Sequence record: NC_048818.1
DNA length: 64,000 bases
Origin: Escherichia phage VEc33
Direction: 5' to 3' (one strand)
Below are positions 2,042-62,348 of this stretch, piece by piece; the first letter of the stretch is position 1; each line of letters opens with the position of its first letter. The notes below the pieces were generated by a model. It was not told the origin of the DNA and made no database searches. It saw only the letters and a list, made by a program, of their open reading frames with translations. The position numbers and the translations under genes are program-made.

Positions 2042-2070
2042 ATTATACTAAATTAGAGGGCTTTAAGCAA
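2042..2070 (-). promoter_or_regulatory. Sigma70-type promoter, minus strand (-35 TTGCTT, 17 bp, -10 TATAAT)
   Basis: Plus attata 2042-2047 and aagcaa 2065-2070. Confidence 0.6.
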
Positions 2071-2873: not shown

Positions 2874-2902
2874 ATTATATTTAAATTTCACTAAATAAGC
2901 AA
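2874..2902 (-). promoter_or_regulatory. Sigma70-type promoter, minus strand (-35 TTGCTT, 17 bp, -10 TATAAT)
   Basis: Plus attata 2874-2879 and aagcaa 2897-2902; downstream region ATAAATTGGAGG resembles the family consensus. Confidence 0.6.
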
Positions 2903-9062: not shown

Positions 9063-9091
9063 ATTATACCAGTATATGCAGTAAAAAGCAA
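9063..9091 (-). promoter_or_regulatory. Sigma70-type promoter, minus strand, for phoH (-35 TTGCTT, 17 bp, -10 TATAAT)
   Basis: Plus attata 9063-9068 and aagcaa 9086-9091; divergent from the nrdD promoter. Confidence 0.6.
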
Positions 9092-11241: not shown

Positions 11242-11275
11242 AGCCGGGTTGCTAGTCGACCTGGCTTTTATTTTA
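11242..11275 (+). terminator. Rho-independent terminator after nrdD
   Basis: 8 bp stem AGCCGGGT/ACCTGGCT (one G-U) followed by TTTTATTTTATTT. Confidence 0.6.
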
Positions 11276-11276
11276 T

Positions 11277-11305
11277 TTGCTTTCAGCCAAAAATTTATAT
11301 ATAAT
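11277..11305 (+). promoter_or_regulatory. T5-type early promoter (TTGCTT, 17 bp, TATAAT, downstream AGATTTATAAATTTGAGAGGAG)
   Basis: TTGCTT 11277-11282, TATAAT 11300-11305; SD then ATG 11334. Confidence 0.7.
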
Positions 11306-11333
11306 AGATTTATAAATTTGAGAGGAGAAAGCT

Positions 11334-11624
11334 ATGAGCGAGTTGCTTCCTAAAGTAGATGTCTCCCATCTTGGGGAGCCTAGTGAAGAACGTAAGGCTC
11401 TAGATTGGTTGGGTGGATTTGATTATCGTCGTGTTGTTGCAACATGGAATGATAAGAATGATAAGAAAGTTAAGAAGTTTCGGGTACATTATGTAGGTAA
11501 AGACAAGTGGCTCTGGATTGATTATGAAGAATCAAAGGGGTCTACTAAGGCTGTGAAAATTTATTGTATGTATGGGTATTATTATGCTCACTGTGATAAG
11601 AATGAATTTACAGTACAGAACTAA
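11334..11624 (+). CDS. Hypothetical protein (96 aa)
   Basis: ORF track; strong promoter and SD GAGAGGAGA upstream. Confidence 0.6.
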   Translation: MSELLPKVDVSHLGEPSEERKALDWLGGFDYRRVVATWNDKNDKKVKKFRVHYVGKDKWLWIDYEESKGSTKAVKIYCMYGYYYAHCDKNEFTVQN

Positions 11625-11633
11625 GGAACAAGA

Positions 11634-11837
11634 ATGAAAAACGTAAAACATCTTAAATATCGCTTAATTTACAACGGACGTATGGAAACAGAAGATCTGG
11701 CCCAATTAGCTATTACTTCTAATGAGGTTACGGTGCGTGCTCTGGCAATTGAAAAGTTGCGTGCCTCTTATGAAAATCGTGTTATGGAACTGGAGGAGAA
11801 ACTTTATGGACTTCTTGAATCAGAATCTAAAAAGTAA
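11634..11837 (+). CDS. Hypothetical protein (67 aa)
   Basis: ORF track; AGGAACAAGA upstream. Confidence 0.5.
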   Translation: MKNVKHLKYRLIYNGRMETEDLAQLAITSNEVTVRALAIEKLRASYENRVMELEEKLYGLLESESKK

Positions 11838-12000
11838 TCCAGAAAACATGCTTATTGAGCAATGGAACTTTGGTTATAATGCTGGTGTAGCTACTTGTAT
11901 TGCTAGATTGGATACGCTTATTAAGCAAGAAAAGGTACGCCCTGAGGAAGCAATTTTACTCCGAAATATTATCGAAGGATTTAAGCAAGGAATCGTATAG
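11806..12000 (+). CDS. Hypothetical small protein (64 aa); internal start of ORF-track 11722..12000
   Basis: ATG at 11806 preceded by GGAGGAGA SD; overlaps the end of the upstream ORF. Confidence 0.4.
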   Translation: MDFLNQNLKSNPENMLIEQWNFGYNAGVATCIARLDTLIKQEKVRPEEAILLRNIIEGFKQGIV

Positions 12001-12836
12001 TGCGTAGATTAATTATTATTAGCGGTGCAGGTTTGAGTGTTGAAAGTGGTGTACGAGCTTTTCGTACTGATACTGCTAGTGGTAAAGCATTGTGGGATGA
12101 TTATGATCTAGAAGAAGTATGTAATATTCATGCCTTTCGTGGTAATTTTTATCATAAAACCCATATGTTTTACAACAAACGTCGTGAAGAGCTAAAAACT
12201 GTTGAACCCAATCTTGCACATTTGCGTATTGGTGAATGGTATAAACAATATCCAGGTCAAGTAGTAAACTTGACTACCAACGTTGATGACCTTATTGAGC
12301 GTGCTGGCGTTCCACATAGTGACATTCTGCACATTCACGGATATTTAAAAGAGGTTGTTGTAGCTGATAGCTACAATAGTAGCAATAAACGGATTATTGA
12401 TGTAGGGTATAATTCTATTGATCCAGATGATTATAAATGGGTTAAACCTAATGTAATCTTCTTTGGAGAACATGCTCCTGCATACGCAGAAATGTATAAT
12501 GTTTTTGATGGTATTACCAGTCAAGATATGATCATTGTGGTTGGTTGCTCTAATCAAGTAATTAACTTCTACTGGGAATTATTTCCTGTTCTTAATTTGA
12601 CTGCTGCCAAACTAATGGTAGTTAACTACTATGATAGTGCCATAGCAGCAGAGCCAGGCTATCAAGGTATGACTCGTAGTGAGATGTACCAACTGGAAGA
12701 TCGTGGTATTCCTTACTGGAGTAATGGTGCGGTAGATGCTTTTAGTGACCCTGATTTTATTGCTCGTGTGGAAGCCCATTTAGAGGGTAGACCTTATGTG
12801 CCGGAGAGAAGGGGAAACAGATATGTCCATAGTTAA
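12000..12836 (+). CDS. Sir2-family (sirtuin-like) NAD-dependent enzyme, no zinc-ribbon cysteines
   Basis: GTG start overlapping upstream stop. Motifs GAGLSVESGVRAFR, NLTTNVDDLIERAG, HIHG, VIFFGE, VVGCSNQV match the Sir2 catalytic core; the CxxC...CxxC Zn module is absent. Confidence 0.75.
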   Translation: MRRLIIISGAGLSVESGVRAFRTDTASGKALWDDYDLEEVCNIHAFRGNFYHKTHMFYNKRREELKTVEPNLAHLRIGEWYKQYPGQVVNLTTNVDDLIERAGVPHSDILHIHGYLKEVVVADSYNSSNKRIIDVGYNSIDPDDYKWVKPNVIFFGEHAPAYAEMYNVFDGITSQDMIIVVGCSNQVINFYWELFPVLNLTAAKLMVVNYYDSAIAAEPGYQGMTRSEMYQLEDRGIPYWSNGAVDAFSDPDFIARVEAHLEGRPYVPERRGNRYVHS

Positions 12837-13005
12837 ATCTGTTTATACACATCCCGATGATATATTTGTATGGGCGGACGGTAGTTGGTGCTATCGCTGT
12901 GAGCTATGGGAAATGGACTATAAATCCGATGATTATGGTGTCATATATGTTGATACGGTTGAGTATGATACGTTCTTAGAAAGGGACAAAAATGGAAATA
13001 AGTAA
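12823..13005 (+). CDS. Hypothetical small protein (60 aa)
   Basis: ATG 12823 with GGGGAAAC SD; in frame with ORF-track start 12796. Confidence 0.4.
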   Translation: MSIVKSVYTHPDDIFVWADGSWCYRCELWEMDYKSDDYGVIYVDTVEYDTFLERDKNGNK

Positions 13006-13498
13006 TACTCCAATTATTTTTCTAGATATTGATGGGGTGCTCAACTCGAGCATCTCCCATCACCATGCACCTGATGATGAAAAGATTTTCTTTGGAAGTG
13101 ACTGGGTTTTTAAACCGCTTCTCAAGGCTTTTCAGGATTTTATTCGTCCTTCTCCAATAATGATTGTTGGGGTATCTTCATGGTTCTCTGTCAGGAATGA
13201 GATGGAGAACGTTCAGATTATGACCGGATTAGATCTTATCGATCGTTTTCTTGGTACAACGGATTTTACTGGTGGTGGATTATCTAGGGGTAATTCTGTT
13301 CTTCGCTTCGTTGAAAAGCATAAGCTCAAACATTGGTGTGTGCTGGATGATGCTGGTGCTATGATGTATCAGTATCCAACGGTTATAGTCAATGGTAGAA
13401 CTGGAATAAATCTTCAAGATTTAAGAGCTGTTAGCTATATGTTAGAATTTAGTCCAGATCTTGAAATGTGTAAAGCCCTGCAACAATTTAAGGTGTAA
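12992..13498 (+). CDS. HAD-superfamily-like hydrolase (putative phosphatase/nucleotidase)
   Basis: N-terminal motif I IIFLDIDGVLNS (hhhhDxDGV) and later WCVLDDAG (hhhDD). Confidence 0.5.
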   Translation: MEISNTPIIFLDIDGVLNSSISHHHAPDDEKIFFGSDWVFKPLLKAFQDFIRPSPIMIVGVSSWFSVRNEMENVQIMTGLDLIDRFLGTTDFTGGGLSRGNSVLRFVEKHKLKHWCVLDDAGAMMYQYPTVIVNGRTGINLQDLRAVSYMLEFSPDLEMCKALQQFKV

Positions 13499-13500
13499 AT

Positions 13501-13929
13501 ATGTTCAATAATGTATTCTCTAAAGAGGCTAACCCGATATTGGTTAATTTTTGGCGTACTCTTCCAGCCAACCTGTACAATGAGGCTATTAATGCTTTGA
13601 AAATATGGTGTGAGAATAATGAAATCTCCTTTGCTTTTAAAGGTGAGATTGAAGAGGCTCCCTGTATTGGTTTAATTGTGCAGGTGGAGGATGGTCTTGA
13701 AGAGATTGTCGGCTGGAAAGAGTTGGATGAAATGGGCTTGGTTTTTGCGTTAAACTATAAGCTGTTTATGCCCAATAAACACCGTATTGTTGTTAACTAT
13801 AAAACCAATGAATCTCCTGGTTTTCAAGTTAATGAACGGTATGGTTGGTCTTACTCACCAGAAGAAGTAAATGATGGTATCCAAAAACTTCGTCGTTTTG
13901 GTTATCAAATTCCGGGTTTAACCGCCTAA
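13501..13929 (+). CDS. Hypothetical protein, paralog A of a tandem pair
   Basis: Shares PCIG, E(L/M)xxMGLxxALN(Y/F)xLF and C-terminal (Q/Y)(I/V)PGL with the next ORF. Confidence 0.6.
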   Translation: MFNNVFSKEANPILVNFWRTLPANLYNEAINALKIWCENNEISFAFKGEIEEAPCIGLIVQVEDGLEEIVGWKELDEMGLVFALNYKLFMPNKHRIVVNYKTNESPGFQVNERYGWSYSPEEVNDGIQKLRRFGYQIPGLTA

Positions 13930-13938
13930 GGGGGCACA

Positions 13939-14331
13939 ATGGAACAAGTATATTGGCGTCAGATCGACCCTAGTTTGGTGAAGCGTGCAGAGAAGCTGCT
14001 ACAACGTTGGTTGGGGGTAAGACAAGCCTCCTTCACTTTTCCGGAGCAGCAAATAGACGATCCCTGTATTGGTGTTTTCCTATCAGGCTACGCTAGGGAA
14101 TGGGAATTGGATTGGAATGAGTTGTCTGCTATGGGTTTAATTGTTGCCCTAAATTTCTCTTTGTTCCATACACGTGGTTTGGCTATATGTCGTGTGCCTG
14201 ATGACGGTTGTTCGCCCCATCTTTTACAGGTGGAAGATGATATTTGGGAGTACACTCCAGATATTCTCAAAGAAGCTAAAGAACAATTAAATCGTGCTGG
14301 GATTTATGTTCCAGGCCTGAACGATGAATGA
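13939..14331 (+). CDS. Hypothetical protein, paralog B of a tandem pair
   Basis: See paralog A; SD GGGGGCACA upstream of ATG. Confidence 0.6.
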   Translation: MEQVYWRQIDPSLVKRAEKLLQRWLGVRQASFTFPEQQIDDPCIGVFLSGYAREWELDWNELSAMGLIVALNFSLFHTRGLAICRVPDDGCSPHLLQVEDDIWEYTPDILKEAKEQLNRAGIYVPGLNDE

Positions 14332-14422
14332 GTTTTATTAGCTGAACTCTGATTACCGAGCCATTTTGACTCGGTTTTCTCTATGTTCAAAGACACTGGT
14401 AGCAGCTCCTGGAAAAATCTAC

Positions 14423-14451
14423 TTGCAGGATGCCCAAAATCTTGATATAAT
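14423..14451 (+). promoter_or_regulatory. Sigma70-type promoter (TTGCAG, 17 bp, TATAAT) opening into a ~500 bp ORF-free region
   Basis: TTGCAG 14423-14428, TATAAT 14446-14451; no SD-supported ORF until GTG 14951. Confidence 0.55.
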
Positions 14452-14950
14452 ATTTATATTGAATTGAGAGACATTAGTAAAAATTGATTTTGCTAATTTT
14501 TCTTGTTTACAATCCGCGATACGGAACAGTTAGGCTGCCCCATTAAGGGTTGTTTTAACTGTTACGTGTTAGTTTTTAAACAAATAGTTAATAGAATACT
14601 TAGCGATCTGCGTCCCGTAGGAACCCTGGTAAGGCCTCGAAGCAACCTAGATAGAGGTGGTTGTGAAGTGAGACGGGAGGAGTGAAAAACTCCGAGACGT
14701 GATTCTGTAAGTTATATTGCATCTAGTATGAGCTAGTATATGAAGCATTAGGTGAGCAAATCTGGCTTAGCGGCCATCCTCAAGGATTTGTGCGGTATAG
14801 CAAAGCAGCAGCGCAGCGTGAAAGTGGAAGTTGCCACCCCACTTCAGTATTTGCGATTAATTTGTTGAGAAATTGACAGTAACAGTTGTTCTATTCTTTC
14901 TGAATAGTCCTAAAGAAAACTTATTTCATTTCCAACACAGGAGTATTGTT

Positions 14951-17740
14951 GTGTTTTCAATCCTACAAGGTCATGCAGGATTTCATCGCGATTTAGCCAC
15001 AGGCAATTGGCGAGAAGTTAAAGCAGAAGATTATCTTTTTGCTAAAAGATTTTCCTCAAAGCATCCTGAAGGTAAACCAGCTTCAATGCCCTTCAAGTTT
15101 GATGTAATTGACGAAGTTGATCCTCAAACCCTAGTAGAAATGCTTCCCATTATGAGACGTTTAACGTCTGACCCTCATATCGTTGCGGTACGAGGTCGAT
15201 GTCTTGCACCTAAAAATAATGTGCGGCGTAAGAAGGGCAACTTTAATGTATCTAACCCAAGTCATATAATCGCAATGGATGTGGATGGTATTGTAGATAC
15301 AGGTGGTTGTAACAAGTTTGATCTTGTTGGCATGGCTCGACATATTATTAGAATGTTAAATAGTATTAGTGAGGATATGTTCCCTCTTGATGCAGGGTTT
15401 ATCGCTCATGCATCATCTTCGGCTGGGCTAAAACCAGGTATCCGAATGCACTTAATACTAGAATCTAATGTTAAAGTAACTCAGGGTCAAATCAAATTCT
15501 TATTTACATCTATCAACGAAAGTAGTAGACAAAAGTATGGCTTTGATATTGCCGACCTAGCTTATTACTCTTCCGTACAGCTTCATTATTTTGCAGATCC
15601 GTTATTTATCGATGGTATAGTAGATCCGTTTAAAGCGGAGGGTGCTTCACGTCTGGTATTTGTTAAGGGTTCTAAAGTAAATTTACCCAATAATCTGGTT
15701 GACTATGAAACAACTAGAGGAGAGTTTAAAGAGGAGTTCTACTCCTTACTCGATCAAATTAAAGGTAAAAAGGCTGCCTCTGATAAAGTAGAAGAAACCA
15801 TCAGCGAGTTAGAAGAAGCCGAGGATGGAGTGTATCTACGTATTATTCCTAAACTCTATCACAGAGCTTTAGAGGATGGTGTTGATTTTGCATGGCTAGA
15901 AAAAGAAATCCGCCCAGCCTTATCAGAATATATTGCAACTAAAGATAATAGTCGTAATATTCAAGACTACTTTAATAACGGTCGTAAACAGGCTCTGAAA
16001 GCGTTTGTTAATAATTCTAAACGCGATATACCTGATGTTTTAAAAGGTATTCCACTTAAAAAGCTAGAAACTAATTCTCTAGAAACTGATAACTTCTTGA
16101 AATTAAACACTGTACCACCAGAAGGTTATATGACTTTTGTAAAAGCAAGTCTAGGTACAGGTAAAACCACGGCAGTTGTGCGTTGGTTAGATTCAGGGGT
16201 TATTAAAGGTAATTTCTTAGCAATTACCAATACTAGAGCACTGGTATCTTCAAATGCTAAGAAATTTAGTGCAGGACAGTATGATAAGTCTGTAGATATG
16301 CTTAATTTTAAGCGTGGTGCTATTGACCGTATGTCCACAACTATTCACTCTTTGCATAAATTCAAGAGTTTTATTGGTCAAATTGACGCAATCTTTATCG
16401 ATGAATGTGATGCAGTAATGAATGACCTATTATTCGCCCCGGTTGTTAAGCAACGTCGAGAGTGTATTCAGGTTCTTCGGGATATTCTTGCAACTGCAAA
16501 AATCATTATATTATCTGATGGGGATATTAGTGCAGAAACAATTGAAGCATATGGTTCTTTGATTGAGTTTGATAAACCGGTTGCATTTTATAATCATCAC
16601 CGTAAAATGCTATCAAAAGCTCATGCTTATGAGTTTCCTGATGAATCCAGTATTTGGGTTGCACTTCAGACTTCCCTGGAGATGGGTGAGAAATCTATCC
16701 TAGTATCTGACTGTGGGCCAGATGAACTGAATGAGAAGGGCATGGCGTTGCGTCGTAATACGGGTGCGTTAGTTAAGGAAATCCATTCAAATTCTACGTC
16801 TGATGTGGATATTAGACGTATCCTGGATTACACAACTAATGAGTTAATTGACCAACAAATTGATTGCTTATTATGTAGTCCATCCGTAACGAGTGGTGTT
16901 GACTTCAACTATTTTGATAACGTATTCGTTATTACTAGAACCTCAAACCAAGCGCCAAACATGCGTTTCCAAGCAATCAGGCGCGACCGTGGTGCTCAGA
17001 ATATCTATTATTTTATTGATAAATCCACTAGTGGATTCTCCGCAGGTTCTGAACAATATAATATTGATGAAGGTTGGCTGGAGTTAGCACAGCAATTATA
17101 TGCACGTCGCAGAGAGCTGGAATCTAGGAACTATACTAGTACTTTACGTTATTACTTGCTTGATCAGGGTGCAACTATTGATATTTTCAGCGAAAGCTGG
17201 GGAACTATTGAAGGTGCTGGTAAAGAGTACACAGAAGAGCGAATCAAAGCTATACTGTATTCAACTCCTGATTATTGTGCTCCACGCCATGCAGATGCGT
17301 ATGAAGCTAAACTACTTCTTGTTCGCTATTATCATCTTGAGTCTATTAAAGATGTAACAGTTGAGCATGTTGAACAATATATCAAGGATAAACCTAATGA
17401 TCGAGCGGCATTCTTCCATAAAATGCACGAGATGTTTTGGGAAGATATTAAGAAGTGTTCAAATGTCACTATCAAACCATTCATAGAAGCTCTGAAAGGT
17501 AAGAAGAAAGATTTCTTCCTTAAAACAGGTCAGAGTGCTAACCCAAAATATGCGAGAATGTATCTTGGTATGATGGGTATTGGTAAGGATATGAACACTG
17601 AAAATATTGTAGACTGGTACAGAACCTATTGTAAAATCGAGTGTATGCCAATCCCGTATAAGTTTATGACTGATGAGGAGAAACATATGCATGATGAAGC
17701 AATGGCAGAGCTAGGTGCTAGAAATGACAGTGAAGAATAA
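14951..17740 (+). CDS. Large replication-associated protein with P-loop NTPase/helicase-like domain
   Basis: GTG start 14951 with AGGAG SD 7 nt upstream (ORF-track TTG at 14873 lacks SD). Walker A ASLGTGKTT, Walker B IFIDECD; ~400 aa N-terminal region unassigned. Confidence 0.7.
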   Translation: MFSILQGHAGFHRDLATGNWREVKAEDYLFAKRFSSKHPEGKPASMPFKFDVIDEVDPQTLVEMLPIMRRLTSDPHIVAVRGRCLAPKNNVRRKKGNFNVSNPSHIIAMDVDGIVDTGGCNKFDLVGMARHIIRMLNSISEDMFPLDAGFIAHASSSAGLKPGIRMHLILESNVKVTQGQIKFLFTSINESSRQKYGFDIADLAYYSSVQLHYFADPLFIDGIVDPFKAEGASRLVFVKGSKVNLPNNLVDYETTRGEFKEEFYSLLDQIKGKKAASDKVEETISELEEAEDGVYLRIIPKLYHRALEDGVDFAWLEKEIRPALSEYIATKDNSRNIQDYFNNGRKQALKAFVNNSKRDIPDVLKGIPLKKLETNSLETDNFLKLNTVPPEGYMTFVKASLGTGKTTAVVRWLDSGVIKGNFLAITNTRALVSSNAKKFSAGQYDKSVDMLNFKRGAIDRMSTTIHSLHKFKSFIGQIDAIFIDECDAVMNDLLFAPVVKQRRECIQVLRDILATAKIIILSDGDISAETIEAYGSLIEFDKPVAFYNHHRKMLSKAHAYEFPDESSIWVALQTSLEMGEKSILVSDCGPDELNEKGMALRRNTGALVKEIHSNSTSDVDIRRILDYTTNELIDQQIDCLLCSPSVTSGVDFNYFDNVFVITRTSNQAPNMRFQAIRRDRGAQNIYYFIDKSTSGFSAGSEQYNIDEGWLELAQQLYARRRELESRNYTSTLRYYLLDQGATIDIFSESWGTIEGAGKEYTEERIKAILYSTPDYCAPRHADAYEAKLLLVRYYHLESIKDVTVEHVEQYIKDKPNDRAAFFHKMHEMFWEDIKKCSNVTIKPFIEALKGKKKDFFLKTGQSANPKYARMYLGMMGIGKDMNTENIVDWYRTYCKIECMPIPYKFMTDEEKHMHDEAMAELGARNDSEE

Positions 17741-17965: not shown

Positions 17966-17994
17966 TTGCTTTCAGGAAAATTTTTCTGTATAAT
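17966..17994 (+). promoter_or_regulatory. T5 early promoter, PN25-like (TTGCTT, 17 bp, TATAAT, AGATTCATAAATTTGAGAGAGAGGAG)
   Basis: TTGCTT 17966-17971, TATAAT 17989-17994; sequence matches from memory the classical T5 PN25 promoter. Confidence 0.8.
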
Positions 17995-18993: not shown

Positions 18994-19022
18994 TTGCTTA
19001 ATCCTACAATTCTTGATATAAT
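18994..19022 (+). promoter_or_regulatory. Sigma70-type promoter (TTGCTT, 17 bp, TATAAT)
   Basis: TTGCTT 18994-18999, TATAAT 19017-19022; AAGGAAA SD before ATG 19080. Confidence 0.6.
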
Positions 19023-20210: not shown

Positions 20211-20239
20211 TTGCTTTCAACTCAGTTTTGTTATATAAT
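20211..20239 (+). promoter_or_regulatory. T5-type early promoter (TTGCTT, 17 bp, TATAAT)
   Basis: TTGCTT 20211-20216, TATAAT 20234-20239; downstream ATTTATATAAATTAATGAGAGGA. Confidence 0.7.
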
Positions 20240-62319: not shown

Positions 62320-62348
62320 TTGCTTTCATCCCTCTATTTTGCTATAAT
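62320..62348 (+). promoter_or_regulatory. T5-type early promoter (TTGCTT, 17 bp, TATAAT, AGATTCATAAATT) for the lipoprotein gene
   Basis: TTGCTT 62320-62325, TATAAT 62343-62348; near-identical to the promoter at 17966-17994; GGAGAG SD then ATG 62380. Confidence 0.75.

What the first reader, a model, noticed from the sequence alone, without database searches (positions are those of the whole stretch)
12000..12836. Sir2-like enzyme without zinc ribbon, embedded in a promoter-to-gap operon of small unknown genes
The catalytic-core motifs of the Sir2 family are all present (GAGLSVESGVRAFR, TNVDDL, HIHG, FFGE) but no CxxC...CxxC zinc module. The gene sits in a tightly coupled operon (11277-14331) bounded by a terminator/promoter pair after nrdD and a non-coding region, together with a HAD-like hydrolase and a tandem paralog pair. 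A phage Sir2-domain protein could consume NAD+ or modify host proteins during takeover, act in NAD+/ADP-ribose metabolism with the adjacent HAD-like enzyme, or take part in inter-phage conflict. I cannot tell which from sequence alone, and I am not certain whether a T5 homolog is already annotated.
Basis: partly seen in the sequence, partly recalled or inferred. Interest (0 to 1): 0.6.

Follow-up and report, generated by a model that had tools for sequence, protein, structure and literature searches.

The report
Known zinc-less sirtuin of T5-like phages
This is the already-annotated "Sir2-like" early gene of T5-type phages (T5.102), a CobB-related NAD+-dependent enzyme that has lost its zinc-binding cysteines. 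It sits next to an RNA-repair-type phosphatase, both features are already described in the literature, and its real substrate has never been tested.

Summary
Window 12000-12836 (+) encodes a 278-aa Sir2-family protein (Pfam PF02146, E 8e-25) with an intact NAD+/catalytic core and no Cys in the 39-residue HG...FGE segment. It is the fourth gene of an eight-gene operon with its own promoter and terminator, together with a HAD_SAK_2 phosphatase and two DUF7415 paralogs.

It is not new. The window is a Tequintavirus, and 526 phage records carry the locus. The gene is T5.102, widely annotated as Sir2. Zinc-less phage Sir2/CobB proteins were described in 2016, and the sirtuin plus Swiss-army-knife HAD neighbourhood of T5-like phages in 2022, with a predicted KptA-like RNA-repair role.

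New details from this work:
- The enzyme is class III (CobB/SIRT5-like), with the Y-x-x-R anion pocket kept.
- The zinc-ribbon sheet is predicted to persist without ligands.
- The conserved Gln before the catalytic Asn is replaced by Thr across the clade.
- The protein is neither a defence-type SIR2 nor a CobB equivalog.
- Knock-down of the T5 ortholog gave no fitness defect in a published screen.

The function is unresolved. I rate protein deacylase about 0.4 and RNA 2'-phosphate removal about 0.3.

The parts
11242..11266 (+). Rho-independent terminator after nrdD
   Evidence: A 10-bp stem with a T-run. It folds at -15.4 kcal/mol with z -3.47. A terminator is annotated at the same place in Bf23.
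11277..11305 (+). T5 early-type promoter TTGCTT-N17-TATAAT
   Evidence: Exact pattern match. The window has 8 such sites against 0.13 expected by chance. An early promoter is annotated here in Bf23.
11334..11624 (+). ORF of 96 aa, function unknown (phrog_7953)
   Evidence: Annotated as hypothetical in Bf23 and JLBYU40.
11634..11837 (+). ORF of 67 aa, function unknown (phrog_5236, the family of T5.101)
11806..12000 (+). ORF of 64 aa, function unknown (phrog_5827). Its stop overlaps the Sir2 GTG start by 1 nt (TAGTG).
   Evidence: The same start is used in JLBYU40.
12000..12836 (+). Sir2-like class III sirtuin, ortholog of T5.102. GAGLS is at 12024-12038, Y58-x-x-R61 at 12171-12182, T93-N94-V95-D96 at 12276-12287 and His113 at 12336-12338. 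The zinc-ribbon remnant without Cys is at 12342-12443, and FGE at 12462-12470.
   Evidence: Pfam PF02146 at E 8e-25. CobB is the best PDB hit by sequence and by fold. The AF2 model has pLDDT 91.
12823..13005 (+). ORF of 60 aa, function unknown (phrog_5116). T5 has two tandem copies (T5.103 and T5.104).
12992..13498 (+). HAD phosphatase of the 'Swiss army knife' RNA-repair type (the T5.105 family). Motif I is DIDGV and motif IV is LDDAG.
   Evidence: Pfam PF18143 HAD_SAK_2 at E 1.8e-20 and 74 bits against a cut-off of 27.5. Also phrog_1818. The motifs were read from the sequence.
13501..13929 (+). DUF7415 paralog a (the T5.106 family)
   Evidence: PF24187 at E 3e-32 and phrog_2502.
13939..14331 (+). 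DUF7415 paralog b (the T5.107 family), with a fold not found in the PDB
14355..14375 (+). Terminator-like hairpin with a T-run, closing the operon
   Evidence: It folds at -10.9 kcal/mol with z -3.5. A terminator is annotated at the equivalent place in Bf23.

Best explanation
The ORF is the T5.102-type 'Sir2-like' early gene of a T5-like phage. I rate that identity at above 0.95. It is a catalytically intact, NAD+-dependent sirtuin of class III (CobB/SIRT5) ancestry. Its small domain keeps the zinc-ribbon sheet but has lost all four Cys ligands. It is transcribed from a T5 early-type promoter as the fourth gene of an eight-gene operon that also encodes a SAK-type HAD phosphatase. The inferred mechanism runs as follows. 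NAD+ binds the GAGLS / F21-R22 / S184 / N209 site. N94, D96 and H113 promote loss of nicotinamide and transfer of ADP-ribose onto an oxygen nucleophile of the substrate. The substrate's anionic part is held by the class III Tyr58/Arg61 pocket. I judge the most likely substrate to be acyl-lysine (acetyl- or succinyl/malonyl-type) on host or phage proteins. On that reading it is a zinc-independent CobB-like deacylase, carried as a dispensable accessory function of early infection. What is shown: family, fold, residue conservation, operon structure, distribution in phages, and dispensability of the T5 ortholog in one screen. What is inferred: enzymatic activity, the nature of the substrate, and any coupling to the HAD enzyme.
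For: - Pfam SIR2 scores 88 bits.
- The top PDB hits by sequence and by predicted structure are the deacylases CobB, Sir2-Af1 and SIRT5. The model has pLDDT 91 and pTM 0.89.
- The residue map to CobB is anchored on engineered CobB mutants visible in the alignments: A76=C41, Y92=Y58, I131=V95, V187=V152. It follows that R95=R61, N130=N94, D132=D96, H147=H113 and F190=F155.
- These residues are invariant in the 57-sequence clade alignment.
- N94 and H113 are present in 143 of 143 aligned sequences, Y58 in 136 and F-R in 132.
- The peptide-clamping FGE loop is kept.
- The whole clade is acidic (median pI 5.2, all 120 below 7), like the CobB core and unlike typical RNA-binding phosphotransferases.
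- No defence-SIR2 model matches.
- T5.102 knock-down was scored 'Not Fit', and the T5-like phage Shivani lacks the gene. Both fit an accessory role (PMC4342426).
Against: - No biochemical data exist for any member of the clade.
- Scores against the NCBIfam CobB equivalogs (44-100 bits) are far below their cut-offs of 221-395.
- The conserved Gln before the catalytic Asn is Thr throughout the clade.
- The V-Y-P substrate strand of CobB reads V-I-N here.
- Gene context points elsewhere. The sirtuin sits next to HAD_SAK_2 in T5-like phages, and between an Rnl1 RNA ligase, cREC, a kinase and a ligase in the ~145-kb phages.
- No acetyltransferase or obvious protein target is encoded nearby.
- The CRISPRi-ART T5 screen was insensitive: nrdA, primase and obp were also 'Not Fit'.
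Confidence: 0.4

Rival explanations
1. RNA-end healing, the published prediction of Iyer et al. 2022. The sirtuin would act like KptA/Tpt1, transferring ADP-ribose from NAD+ onto an RNA 2'-phosphate and releasing ADP-ribose 1'',2''-cyclic phosphate. The SAK-type HAD would process the 2',3'-cyclic or terminal phosphate, or the ADPr product. The pair would repair tRNAs or mRNAs cut by host anticodon nucleases or other RNA-targeting defences.
For: - The HAD neighbour belongs to PF18143, 'HAD domain in Swiss Army Knife RNA repair proteins'.
- The Sir2-HAD linkage survives a change of gene order in Erwinia phage KEY.
- In Raoultella phage Ro1 the 62%-identical sirtuin lies in the run Metallophos...Rnl1-cREC-AAA_33 kinase-SIR2-ligase.
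- Among 114 neighbours from 26 dereplicated loci, RNA_lig_T4_1 matches 7, AAA_33 6, cREC 4 and HAD_SAK_2 4.
- PMC9503650 section 3.7.3 describes the same three neighbourhood types.
- The two-step sirtuin chemistry parallels that of Tpt1 (established knowledge). The Tyr/Arg anion pocket could hold a phosphate (inference).
- T5-like phages carry about 24 tRNA genes, consistent with pressure on tRNA.
Against: - The T5-type genome has no detectable Rnl1 ligase, cREC or PNK-like kinase (tblastn E >= 0.03). The pair therefore cannot heal and seal on its own.
- Of 56 dereplicated phage Rnl1 loci, only 7 carry the sirtuin. In the other 48 loci scanned, no KptA family appears among the 25 families listed, so the expected Sir2/KptA displacement is not seen.
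- The Rnl1/kinase/phosphoesterase route does not need 2'-phosphate removal (established knowledge of T4 Pnkp/Rnl1).
- The clade is uniformly acidic, and no extra conserved basic residues beyond those shared with CobB are evident.
- The neighbourhoods come from few independent lineages.
Confidence: 0.3
2. Small-molecule NAD+/ADP-ribose metabolism or counter-defence. The sirtuin and HAD would act on soluble NAD+-derived compounds. Examples are destroying or modifying ADPr-based immune signals or toxic ADPr-phosphates, or a phosphoribosyl-transfer plus dephosphorylation pair like the one CobB can support in cobalamin synthesis.
For: - Sirtuin neighbourhoods in other phages also hold NAD-salvage and ADPr-processing genes. 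PRPP synthetase and NADAR flank the Ro1 locus.
- NAPRTase, NAMPT, Pribosyltran and Macro domains recur around phage Rnl1 modules.
- T5-like phages depend on NAD+ for their DNA ligase.
- Dispensability on a defence-poor laboratory host fits a conditional counter-defence gene.
Against: - The protein keeps the peptide-clamping FGE loop and the acyl-lysine tunnel residues of protein deacylases.
- No sponge-like or signal-binding domain is present.
- No PADLOC or anti-defence family matches.
- There is no direct evidence of any kind.
Confidence: 0.15
3. NAD+-depleting NADase used for host shut-off or for inter-phage exclusion, by analogy with defence SIR2 effectors.
For: Zinc-less SIR2 domains in ThsA, DSR and SIR2-HerA are NADases (PMC9503650). 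The gene is expressed from an early promoter.
Against: - There is no match to Pfam SIR2_2 or to any PADLOC SIR2 model.
- The nearest structures are deacylases, not ThsA or DSR2.
- The phage's own DNA ligase needs NAD+.
- There is no sensor or partner domain.
- The zinc-less state is a recent ligand loss within a CobB-like lineage, not shared ancestry with defence SIR2.
Confidence: 0.05

Closest known systems
T5.102 / 'Sir2-like protein' of phage T5, Bf23 (BF23_00121) and hundreds of other Tequintavirus genomes
   Same: It is the same gene in the same operon position, downstream of nrdD. Identity is 95-97% at the protein level.
   Different: Only minor differences. The C-terminus is 6 residues longer than in T5. 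The window has one copy of the 60-aa ORF where T5 has two.
E. coli CobB (PDB 1S5P, 6RXJ), a class III sirtuin lysine deacetylase/desuccinylase
   Same: It is the best sequence and fold match. Shared features are GAGxS, F-R, the Y-x-x-R anion pocket, N-x-D, the catalytic His and the FGE loop. The HG...FGE segment has the same length.
   Different: No Cys ligands are present, whereas CobB has C...CxCC. The Gln before the Asn is Thr. V-Y-P becomes V-I-N, and A76 becomes an invariant Cys. There is an extra helical C-terminal region of about 60 residues. Scores are far below the NCBIfam CobB equivalog cut-offs. The gene is phage-encoded.
Sir2/CobB of Vibrio phages phiSt2, phiGrn1 and KVP40 (PMC5107563)
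   Same: These are phage-encoded CobB-like sirtuins reported to lack the zinc site in the finger domain. That paper lists T5 as carrying a homolog.
   Different: They come from a different phage group, are linked there to NAD+ salvage genes, and keep the Pro of the I-N-P strand. They were characterised only in silico and by transcript levels.
The 'distinct clade of viral sirtuins' linked to RNA-repair genes (Iyer, Burroughs, Anantharaman, Aravind 2022, PMC9503650)
   Same: This locus is their neighbourhood type 3, a sirtuin plus SAK-like HAD in T5-like phage SP15. I recovered their type 2 (tRNA ligase, cREC, kinase) independently.
   Different: Nothing differs in kind. Their functional claim is a prediction, and my displacement test did not add support for it.
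KptA/Tpt1 RNA 2'-phosphotransferase
   Same: The resemblance is in proposed chemistry only: NAD+-dependent ADP-ribosyl transfer to an anionic oxygen, followed by attack of the ribose 2''-OH.
   Different: The fold and family are unrelated, and no sequence or structural match was found. Tpt1 enzymes are basic proteins (own knowledge), whereas this clade is acidic.
Defence-associated SIR2 NADases (ThsA, DSR1/2, SIR2-HerA, pAgo-SIR2)
   Same: They have a SIR2 Rossmann core without a zinc ribbon, and they consume NAD+.
   Different: There is no PADLOC or SIR2_2 match. Their ancestry is different. They carry sensor or partner domains that are absent here. They are bacterial rather than phage genes.

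Membership tests
Sir2/sirtuin family (Pfam PF02146) | Profile score above the curated gathering threshold | tested here: met
   88.2 bits against a cut-off of 24, E 8.3e-25, covering profile positions 1-178 of 180.
Sir2/sirtuin family (Pfam PF02146) | Rossmann NAD+-binding motifs: GAGxS, the F-R co-substrate loop, G-x-S and a distal Asn | tested here: met
   G9 A10 G11 S13, F21 R22, G182 S184 and N209 are invariant in the 57-sequence clade alignment. They align to the CobB motifs.
Sir2/sirtuin family (Pfam PF02146) | Catalytic His and the C-pocket Asn/Asp | tested here: met
   H113 and N94 are present in 143 of 143 sequences and D96 in 137 of 143.
Sir2/sirtuin family (Pfam PF02146) | Conserved Gln immediately before the catalytic Asn (the TQN[IV]D motif) | tested here: not met
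   T93 is invariant in the clade. Gln is present in CobB and in most zinc-bearing relatives.
Sir2/sirtuin family (Pfam PF02146) | Cys4 structural zinc ribbon (CxxC...CxxC) in the small domain | tested here: not met
   There is no Cys among the 39 residues. The 120 closest homologs have 0-2 Cys and never four. The sheet is still modelled at pLDDT 88-97. Actual metal content cannot be tested here.
Sir2/sirtuin family (Pfam PF02146) | NAD+-dependent deacylase or ADP-ribosyltransferase activity | not testable with these tools
   This needs a biochemical assay. No published assay was found.
Class III sirtuins (CobB / SIRT5 / Sir2-Af1) | Tyr-x-x-Arg anion-binding pair and a small residue at the CobB A76 position in the acyl pocket | tested here: met
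   Y58 and R61 are invariant in the clade, and C41 occupies the A76 position. The mapping is fixed by the CobB Y92A and A76G mutants visible in the alignments.
Class III sirtuins (CobB / SIRT5 / Sir2-Af1) | Closest solved structures belong to class III | tested here: met
   Foldseek gives CobB at E 3e-18 and TM 0.85, followed by Sir2-Af1 and SIRT5.
CobB equivalog (NCBIfam NF040867, NF001752-5) | Score above the curated equivalog or subfamily cut-off | tested here: not met
   Scores are 44-100 bits against cut-offs of 221-395.
Defence-associated SIR2 NADases (ThsA, DSR, SIR2-HerA; Pfam SIR2_2, PADLOC) | Match to SIR2_2 or to PADLOC SIR2 effector models, with a linked sensor or partner | tested here: not met
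   There is no PADLOC hit at E <= 0.01 for any of the 8 operon proteins. There is no SIR2_2 hit at E <= 1.
Phage 'RNA-repair' sirtuin clade of Iyer et al. 2022 | Phage-restricted sirtuin clade with a SAK-type HAD, or with tRNA ligase/cREC/kinase, in the same gene neighbourhood | tested here: met
   HAD_SAK_2 lies 156 nt downstream in the same operon. Relatives are linked to Rnl1-cREC-AAA_33. The description is in PMC9503650.
Phage 'RNA-repair' sirtuin clade of Iyer et al. 2022 | Acts as a KptA analogue, so it should alternate with KptA in otherwise similar modules and needs a ligase partner | tested here: inconclusive
   No KptA family appears among the 25 families listed for the neighbours in 48 sirtuin-less Rnl1 loci. 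No Rnl1, cREC or kinase is detectable in a complete T5-type genome. This neither proves nor excludes the activity.
KptA/Tpt1 (Pfam PTS_2-RNA) | Sequence or fold homology to Tpt1 | tested here: not met
   The only Pfam hit is SIR2. All top structural matches are sirtuins.

The most novel reading that the evidence does not exclude
The phage sirtuin clade may have been re-targeted from acyl-lysine to nucleic acid. On this reading it uses NAD+ to remove or cap RNA 2'- or terminal phosphates. Together with the SAK-type HAD it would heal tRNAs or mRNAs cut by host RNA-targeting defences. That would make it the first sirtuin shown to act on RNA, and a zinc-independent one. A weaker extension is that the essential-looking DUF7415 protein in the same operon (the T5.107 homolog) is part of this module.
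Probability: 0.25. Interest if true: 0.75.

Novelty: already known. Interest (0 to 1): 0.25.

Why it matters
As a discovery, very little. The gene, its lack of zinc ligands in phage homologs and its HAD neighbourhood are all on record. As an open question it has some value. This sirtuin clade is conserved across several families of large virulent enterobacterial phages, yet it has never been assayed. A simple experiment would settle a published prediction that a sirtuin can stand in for KptA in RNA repair. That experiment compares NAD+ turnover with acyl-peptides against turnover with 2'-phosphate RNA. The clade also offers a natural test of whether the sirtuin zinc ribbon needs zinc at all.

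Tried and rejected
- **Defence-type SIR2 NADase:** rejected. There is no PADLOC or SIR2_2 match, and the nearest structures are deacylases.
- **CobB equivalog:** rejected on the NCBIfam cut-offs.
- **Pseudoenzyme:** rejected, because all catalytic residues are invariant.
- **KptA displacement test:** I scanned viral contigs with an Rnl1 profile, dereplicated the hits to 56 loci, and ran Pfam on 150 neighbours from the 48 loci scanned that lack the sirtuin. No KptA family was listed, so the test gave no support either way.
- **Search for a ligase or kinase partner** in a complete T5-type genome: none found.
- **HAD protein against PDB sequences:** no hit.
- **Rfam and repeat scan of the 14332-14872 gap:** nothing significant.
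- **Literature on experimental characterisation or essentiality:** nothing on function. There is only a 'Not Fit' call for T5.102 in an insensitive screen.
- **Net charge/pI as a proxy for RNA binding:** the clade is acidic, which is weak evidence only.
- **Not possible here:** I could not inspect model coordinates, so no electrostatics or docking was done.
Full report
**What is there.** Window 12000-12836 (+) is an ORF with a GTG start and a TAA stop encoding 278 aa. It matches Pfam SIR2 (PF02146) at E 8.3e-25 and 88 bits over almost the whole profile. It matches phrog_2162 'Sir2' at E 4e-121. The 39 residues between HIHG and FFGE contain no Cys or His.

**Where it comes from.** The 3.3-kb region matches 526 phage records at up to about 96% identity. 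Almost all are T5-like phages of Salmonella, Escherichia and Klebsiella, and most annotate this ORF as a Sir2-family deacetylase. In the curated Bf23 record the same nine elements appear in the same order: terminator, early promoter, three small ORFs, 'Sir2-like protein', a small ORF, three further ORFs and a terminator, followed by the origin-binding protein gene. The T5 reference contig carries a 95% identical copy (L021). In the T5 re-annotation of PMC11879866 the gene is T5.102, the HAD gene is T5.105 and the paralog pair is T5.106/T5.107.

**Operon.**
- A strong hairpin with a T-run lies at 11242-11266 (-15.4 kcal/mol, z -3.5).
- It is followed by TTGCTT-N17-TATAAT at 11277-11305. This pattern occurs 8 times in the window against 0.13 expected, and it does not occur 8 times in any of 100 shuffles. 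From my own memory it is the hallmark of strong T5 promoters such as PN25. The generic sigma-70 scan missed it because TTGCTT matches only 3 of 6 positions of TTGACA.
- Eight ORFs follow, with junctions ranging from a 9-nt gap to a 32-nt overlap. The Sir2 GTG overlaps the preceding stop codon (TAGTG).
- A second hairpin with a T-run lies at about 14355-14375.
- The neighbour at 12992-13498 is PF18143, 'HAD domain in Swiss Army Knife RNA repair proteins' (E 1.8e-20). It has intact DxDGV and DD motifs.
- 13501-13929 and 13939-14331 are DUF7415 paralogs.

**What kind of sirtuin.** The best solved relatives by sequence are E. coli CobB (1.8e-17), then Sir2-Af1/Af2 and SIRT5. An AlphaFold model built on 57 homologs is confident (pLDDT 91, pTM 0.89). 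Its best structural matches are again CobB (E 3e-18, TM 0.85), Sir2-Af1 and SIRT5. All of these are class III sirtuins.

The engineered CobB mutants in the PDB fix the residue correspondence. The Y92A, A76G, I131C/L and V187Y substitutions are visible in the alignments and are named. This gives C41=A76, Y58=Y92, R61=R95, T93=Q129, N94=N130, D96=D132, H113=H147, V152=V187 and F155=F190. The class III Tyr-x-x-Arg pair makes CobB and SIRT5 desuccinylases (established knowledge). It is present here and invariant in the phage clade, as are all NAD+-binding and catalytic residues.

Two active-site positions differ from CobB across the clade. The Gln before the catalytic Asn is Thr. The V-Y-P substrate strand reads V-I-N. 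NCBIfam CobB models score 44-100 bits, far below their cut-offs. No PADLOC defence model matches. The protein is therefore a divergent class III-type sirtuin. It is neither a CobB equivalog nor a defence-type SIR2.

**The zinc module.** The segment is not deleted. It has the same length as in CobB and is modelled as three strands (114-122, 131-134, 147-152) at pLDDT 88-97. All 120 closest homologs have 0-2 Cys in this segment and never four. They carry their own conserved motif, D[VI]GY...DP.D[YF].W.KPNV.FFGE. An exhaustive search of 1.84 billion representatives found 2965 relatives at E <= 1e-3.

Among the best 141 full-length representatives, plus the query and the CobB fragment (143 sequences in all), the counts are as follows:

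| Cys in the segment | Residue before the catalytic Asn | Sequences |
|---|---|---|
| 3 or more | Gln | 74 |
| 2 or fewer | Thr | 33 |
| 2 or fewer | Gln | 13 |
| 3 or more | Thr | 11 |

The remaining 12 sequences carry another residue at that position. Many zinc-bearing relatives share the 'DIGY' motif between the two CxxC pairs. The T5 clade is thus a derived loss of ligands within a CobB-like lineage, loosely associated with the Gln-to-Thr change. These counts are not phylogenetically independent.

**What is already published.**
- PMC5107563 (2016) modelled the Sir2/CobB of Vibrio phages phiSt2 and KVP40. It reported absence of the zinc site, proposed salt bridges as a substitute, and listed T5 among the phages with a homolog.
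- PMC9503650 (2022) defined a distinct viral sirtuin clade with three neighbourhood types. [quoted passage not shown] The authors proposed that these sirtuins act like KptA to remove RNA 2'-phosphates.
- Zinc-less PF02146 sirtuins have also been noted in silico in acetic acid bacteria.
- I found no biochemical or genetic study of function.
- In the CRISPRi-ART T5 screen, T5.100 to T5.106, including the sirtuin and the HAD gene, were 'Not Fit'. T5.107 was one of 17 'Fit' genes. The screen also scored nrdA, primase and obp as 'Not Fit', so a negative call carries little weight.
- The T5-like phage Shivani lacks the gene.

**Independent tests of context.**
- In Raoultella phage Ro1 the 62%-identical sirtuin lies in the run Metallophos...Rnl1-cREC-AAA_33 kinase-SIR2-ligase.
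- In Erwinia phage KEY, which has T5-like synteny, the order is HAD_SAK_2, a 118-aa ORF, then SIR2. The pair therefore stays together despite a rearrangement.
- In a V5-like phage the neighbours are uninformative.
- Pooled Pfam scans of 114 same-strand neighbours from 26 dereplicated viral loci gave ATP-dependent ligase 10, RNA_lig_T4_1 7, DUF7415 7, AAA_33 6, HAD_SAK_2 4 and cREC 4.

This confirms the published pattern, although it represents only a few independent phage lineages.

**Tests that could have strengthened the RNA-repair reading did not.** Starting from the Rnl1 ligase, 56 dereplicated phage loci were recovered. Only 7 carry the sirtuin within 6 kb. I scanned 150 neighbours from 48 of the 49 loci that lack it. 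They are mostly kinases (26) and Metallophos phosphoesterases (13), with some NAD-salvage and Macro genes. No KptA family appears among those listed. There is therefore no sign that the sirtuin and KptA substitute for each other.

A complete T5-type genome has no detectable Rnl1, cREC or PNK-like kinase. In T5-like phages the sirtuin-HAD pair could at most heal RNA ends, not seal them. The whole clade is acidic (median pI 5.2, all below 7), like the CobB core. That is weak evidence against direct binding of an RNA polymer.

**Verdict on mechanism.** The shown facts are a catalytically competent, class III-derived, zinc-ligand-free sirtuin. It is expressed from an early promoter, is conserved in several groups of large virulent enterobacterial phages, is dispensable in at least one laboratory screen, and is linked to a SAK-type HAD phosphatase. 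The substrate is inferred.

| Reading | Main basis | Probability |
|---|---|---|
| CobB-like protein lysine deacylase | Sequence and structure | about 0.4 |
| KptA-like RNA 2'-phosphate removal | Gene context | about 0.3 |
| Soluble NAD+/ADPr metabolism or counter-defence | NAD-related genes nearby | about 0.15 |
| NADase weapon | Analogy to defence SIR2 | about 0.05 |

**Novelty and interest.** The feature is already known and annotated, and its two notable properties have been described before. The remaining interest is that nobody has assayed this widespread phage sirtuin clade, and that a single biochemical experiment would decide between the readings.

Noticed in passing
window 12992-13498 (HAD gene); RefSeq records: phrog_18062 is labelled 'Sir2 (NAD-dependent deacetylase)', but it matches the C-terminal half of the HAD protein (residues 77-168, E 1.9e-58). 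It matches the real sirtuin only weakly (E 9e-7). This probably explains why many RefSeq/Pharokka annotations list 'Sir2 (x2)' at this locus. It looks like a propagated mislabel.
   Followed up: partly
[not shown]
   Followed up: partly
window 2042-2070(-), 2874-2902(-), 9063-9091(-), 11277-11305(+), 17966-17994(+), 18994-19022(+), 20211-20239(+), 62320-62348(+): There are eight exact TTGCTT-N17-TATAAT sites against 0.13 expected by chance. Several also share TTGCTTTCA. They look like a T5 early-promoter class, and a generic sigma-70 consensus scan misses them.
   Followed up: partly
window 14332-14872: This is a non-coding gap of about 540 nt between the operon terminator and the origin-binding-protein gene. 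It contains a 12-nt inverted repeat (14521-14532 / 14556-14567) and has no Rfam match. In phage JLBYU40 an HNH endonuclease gene is inserted at the equivalent place. I did not examine whether it holds a replication origin or only the obp promoter.
   Followed up: partly
window 12823-13005; T5 genes T5.103 and T5.104: The 60-aa ORF overlapping the 3' end of the sirtuin gene (phrog_5116) is single-copy here but tandemly duplicated in T5.
   Followed up: no
L002 (Raoultella phage Ro1) and the Rnl1 loci L064-L142: Phage Rnl1/kinase/phosphoesterase modules often sit beside NAD+ salvage and ADPr-processing genes (PRPP synthetase, NAPRTase, NAMPT, NADAR, Macro). This suggests a mixed 'RNA repair plus NAD/ADPr' accessory region in large enterobacterial phages.
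   Followed up: no
window 14873-17740: The mechanically listed 955-aa ORF with a TTG start is the origin-binding protein gene. Annotated orthologs are about 928 aa (the T5.108 CDS is 2787 nt), so the true start is probably about 27 codons downstream.
   Followed up: no
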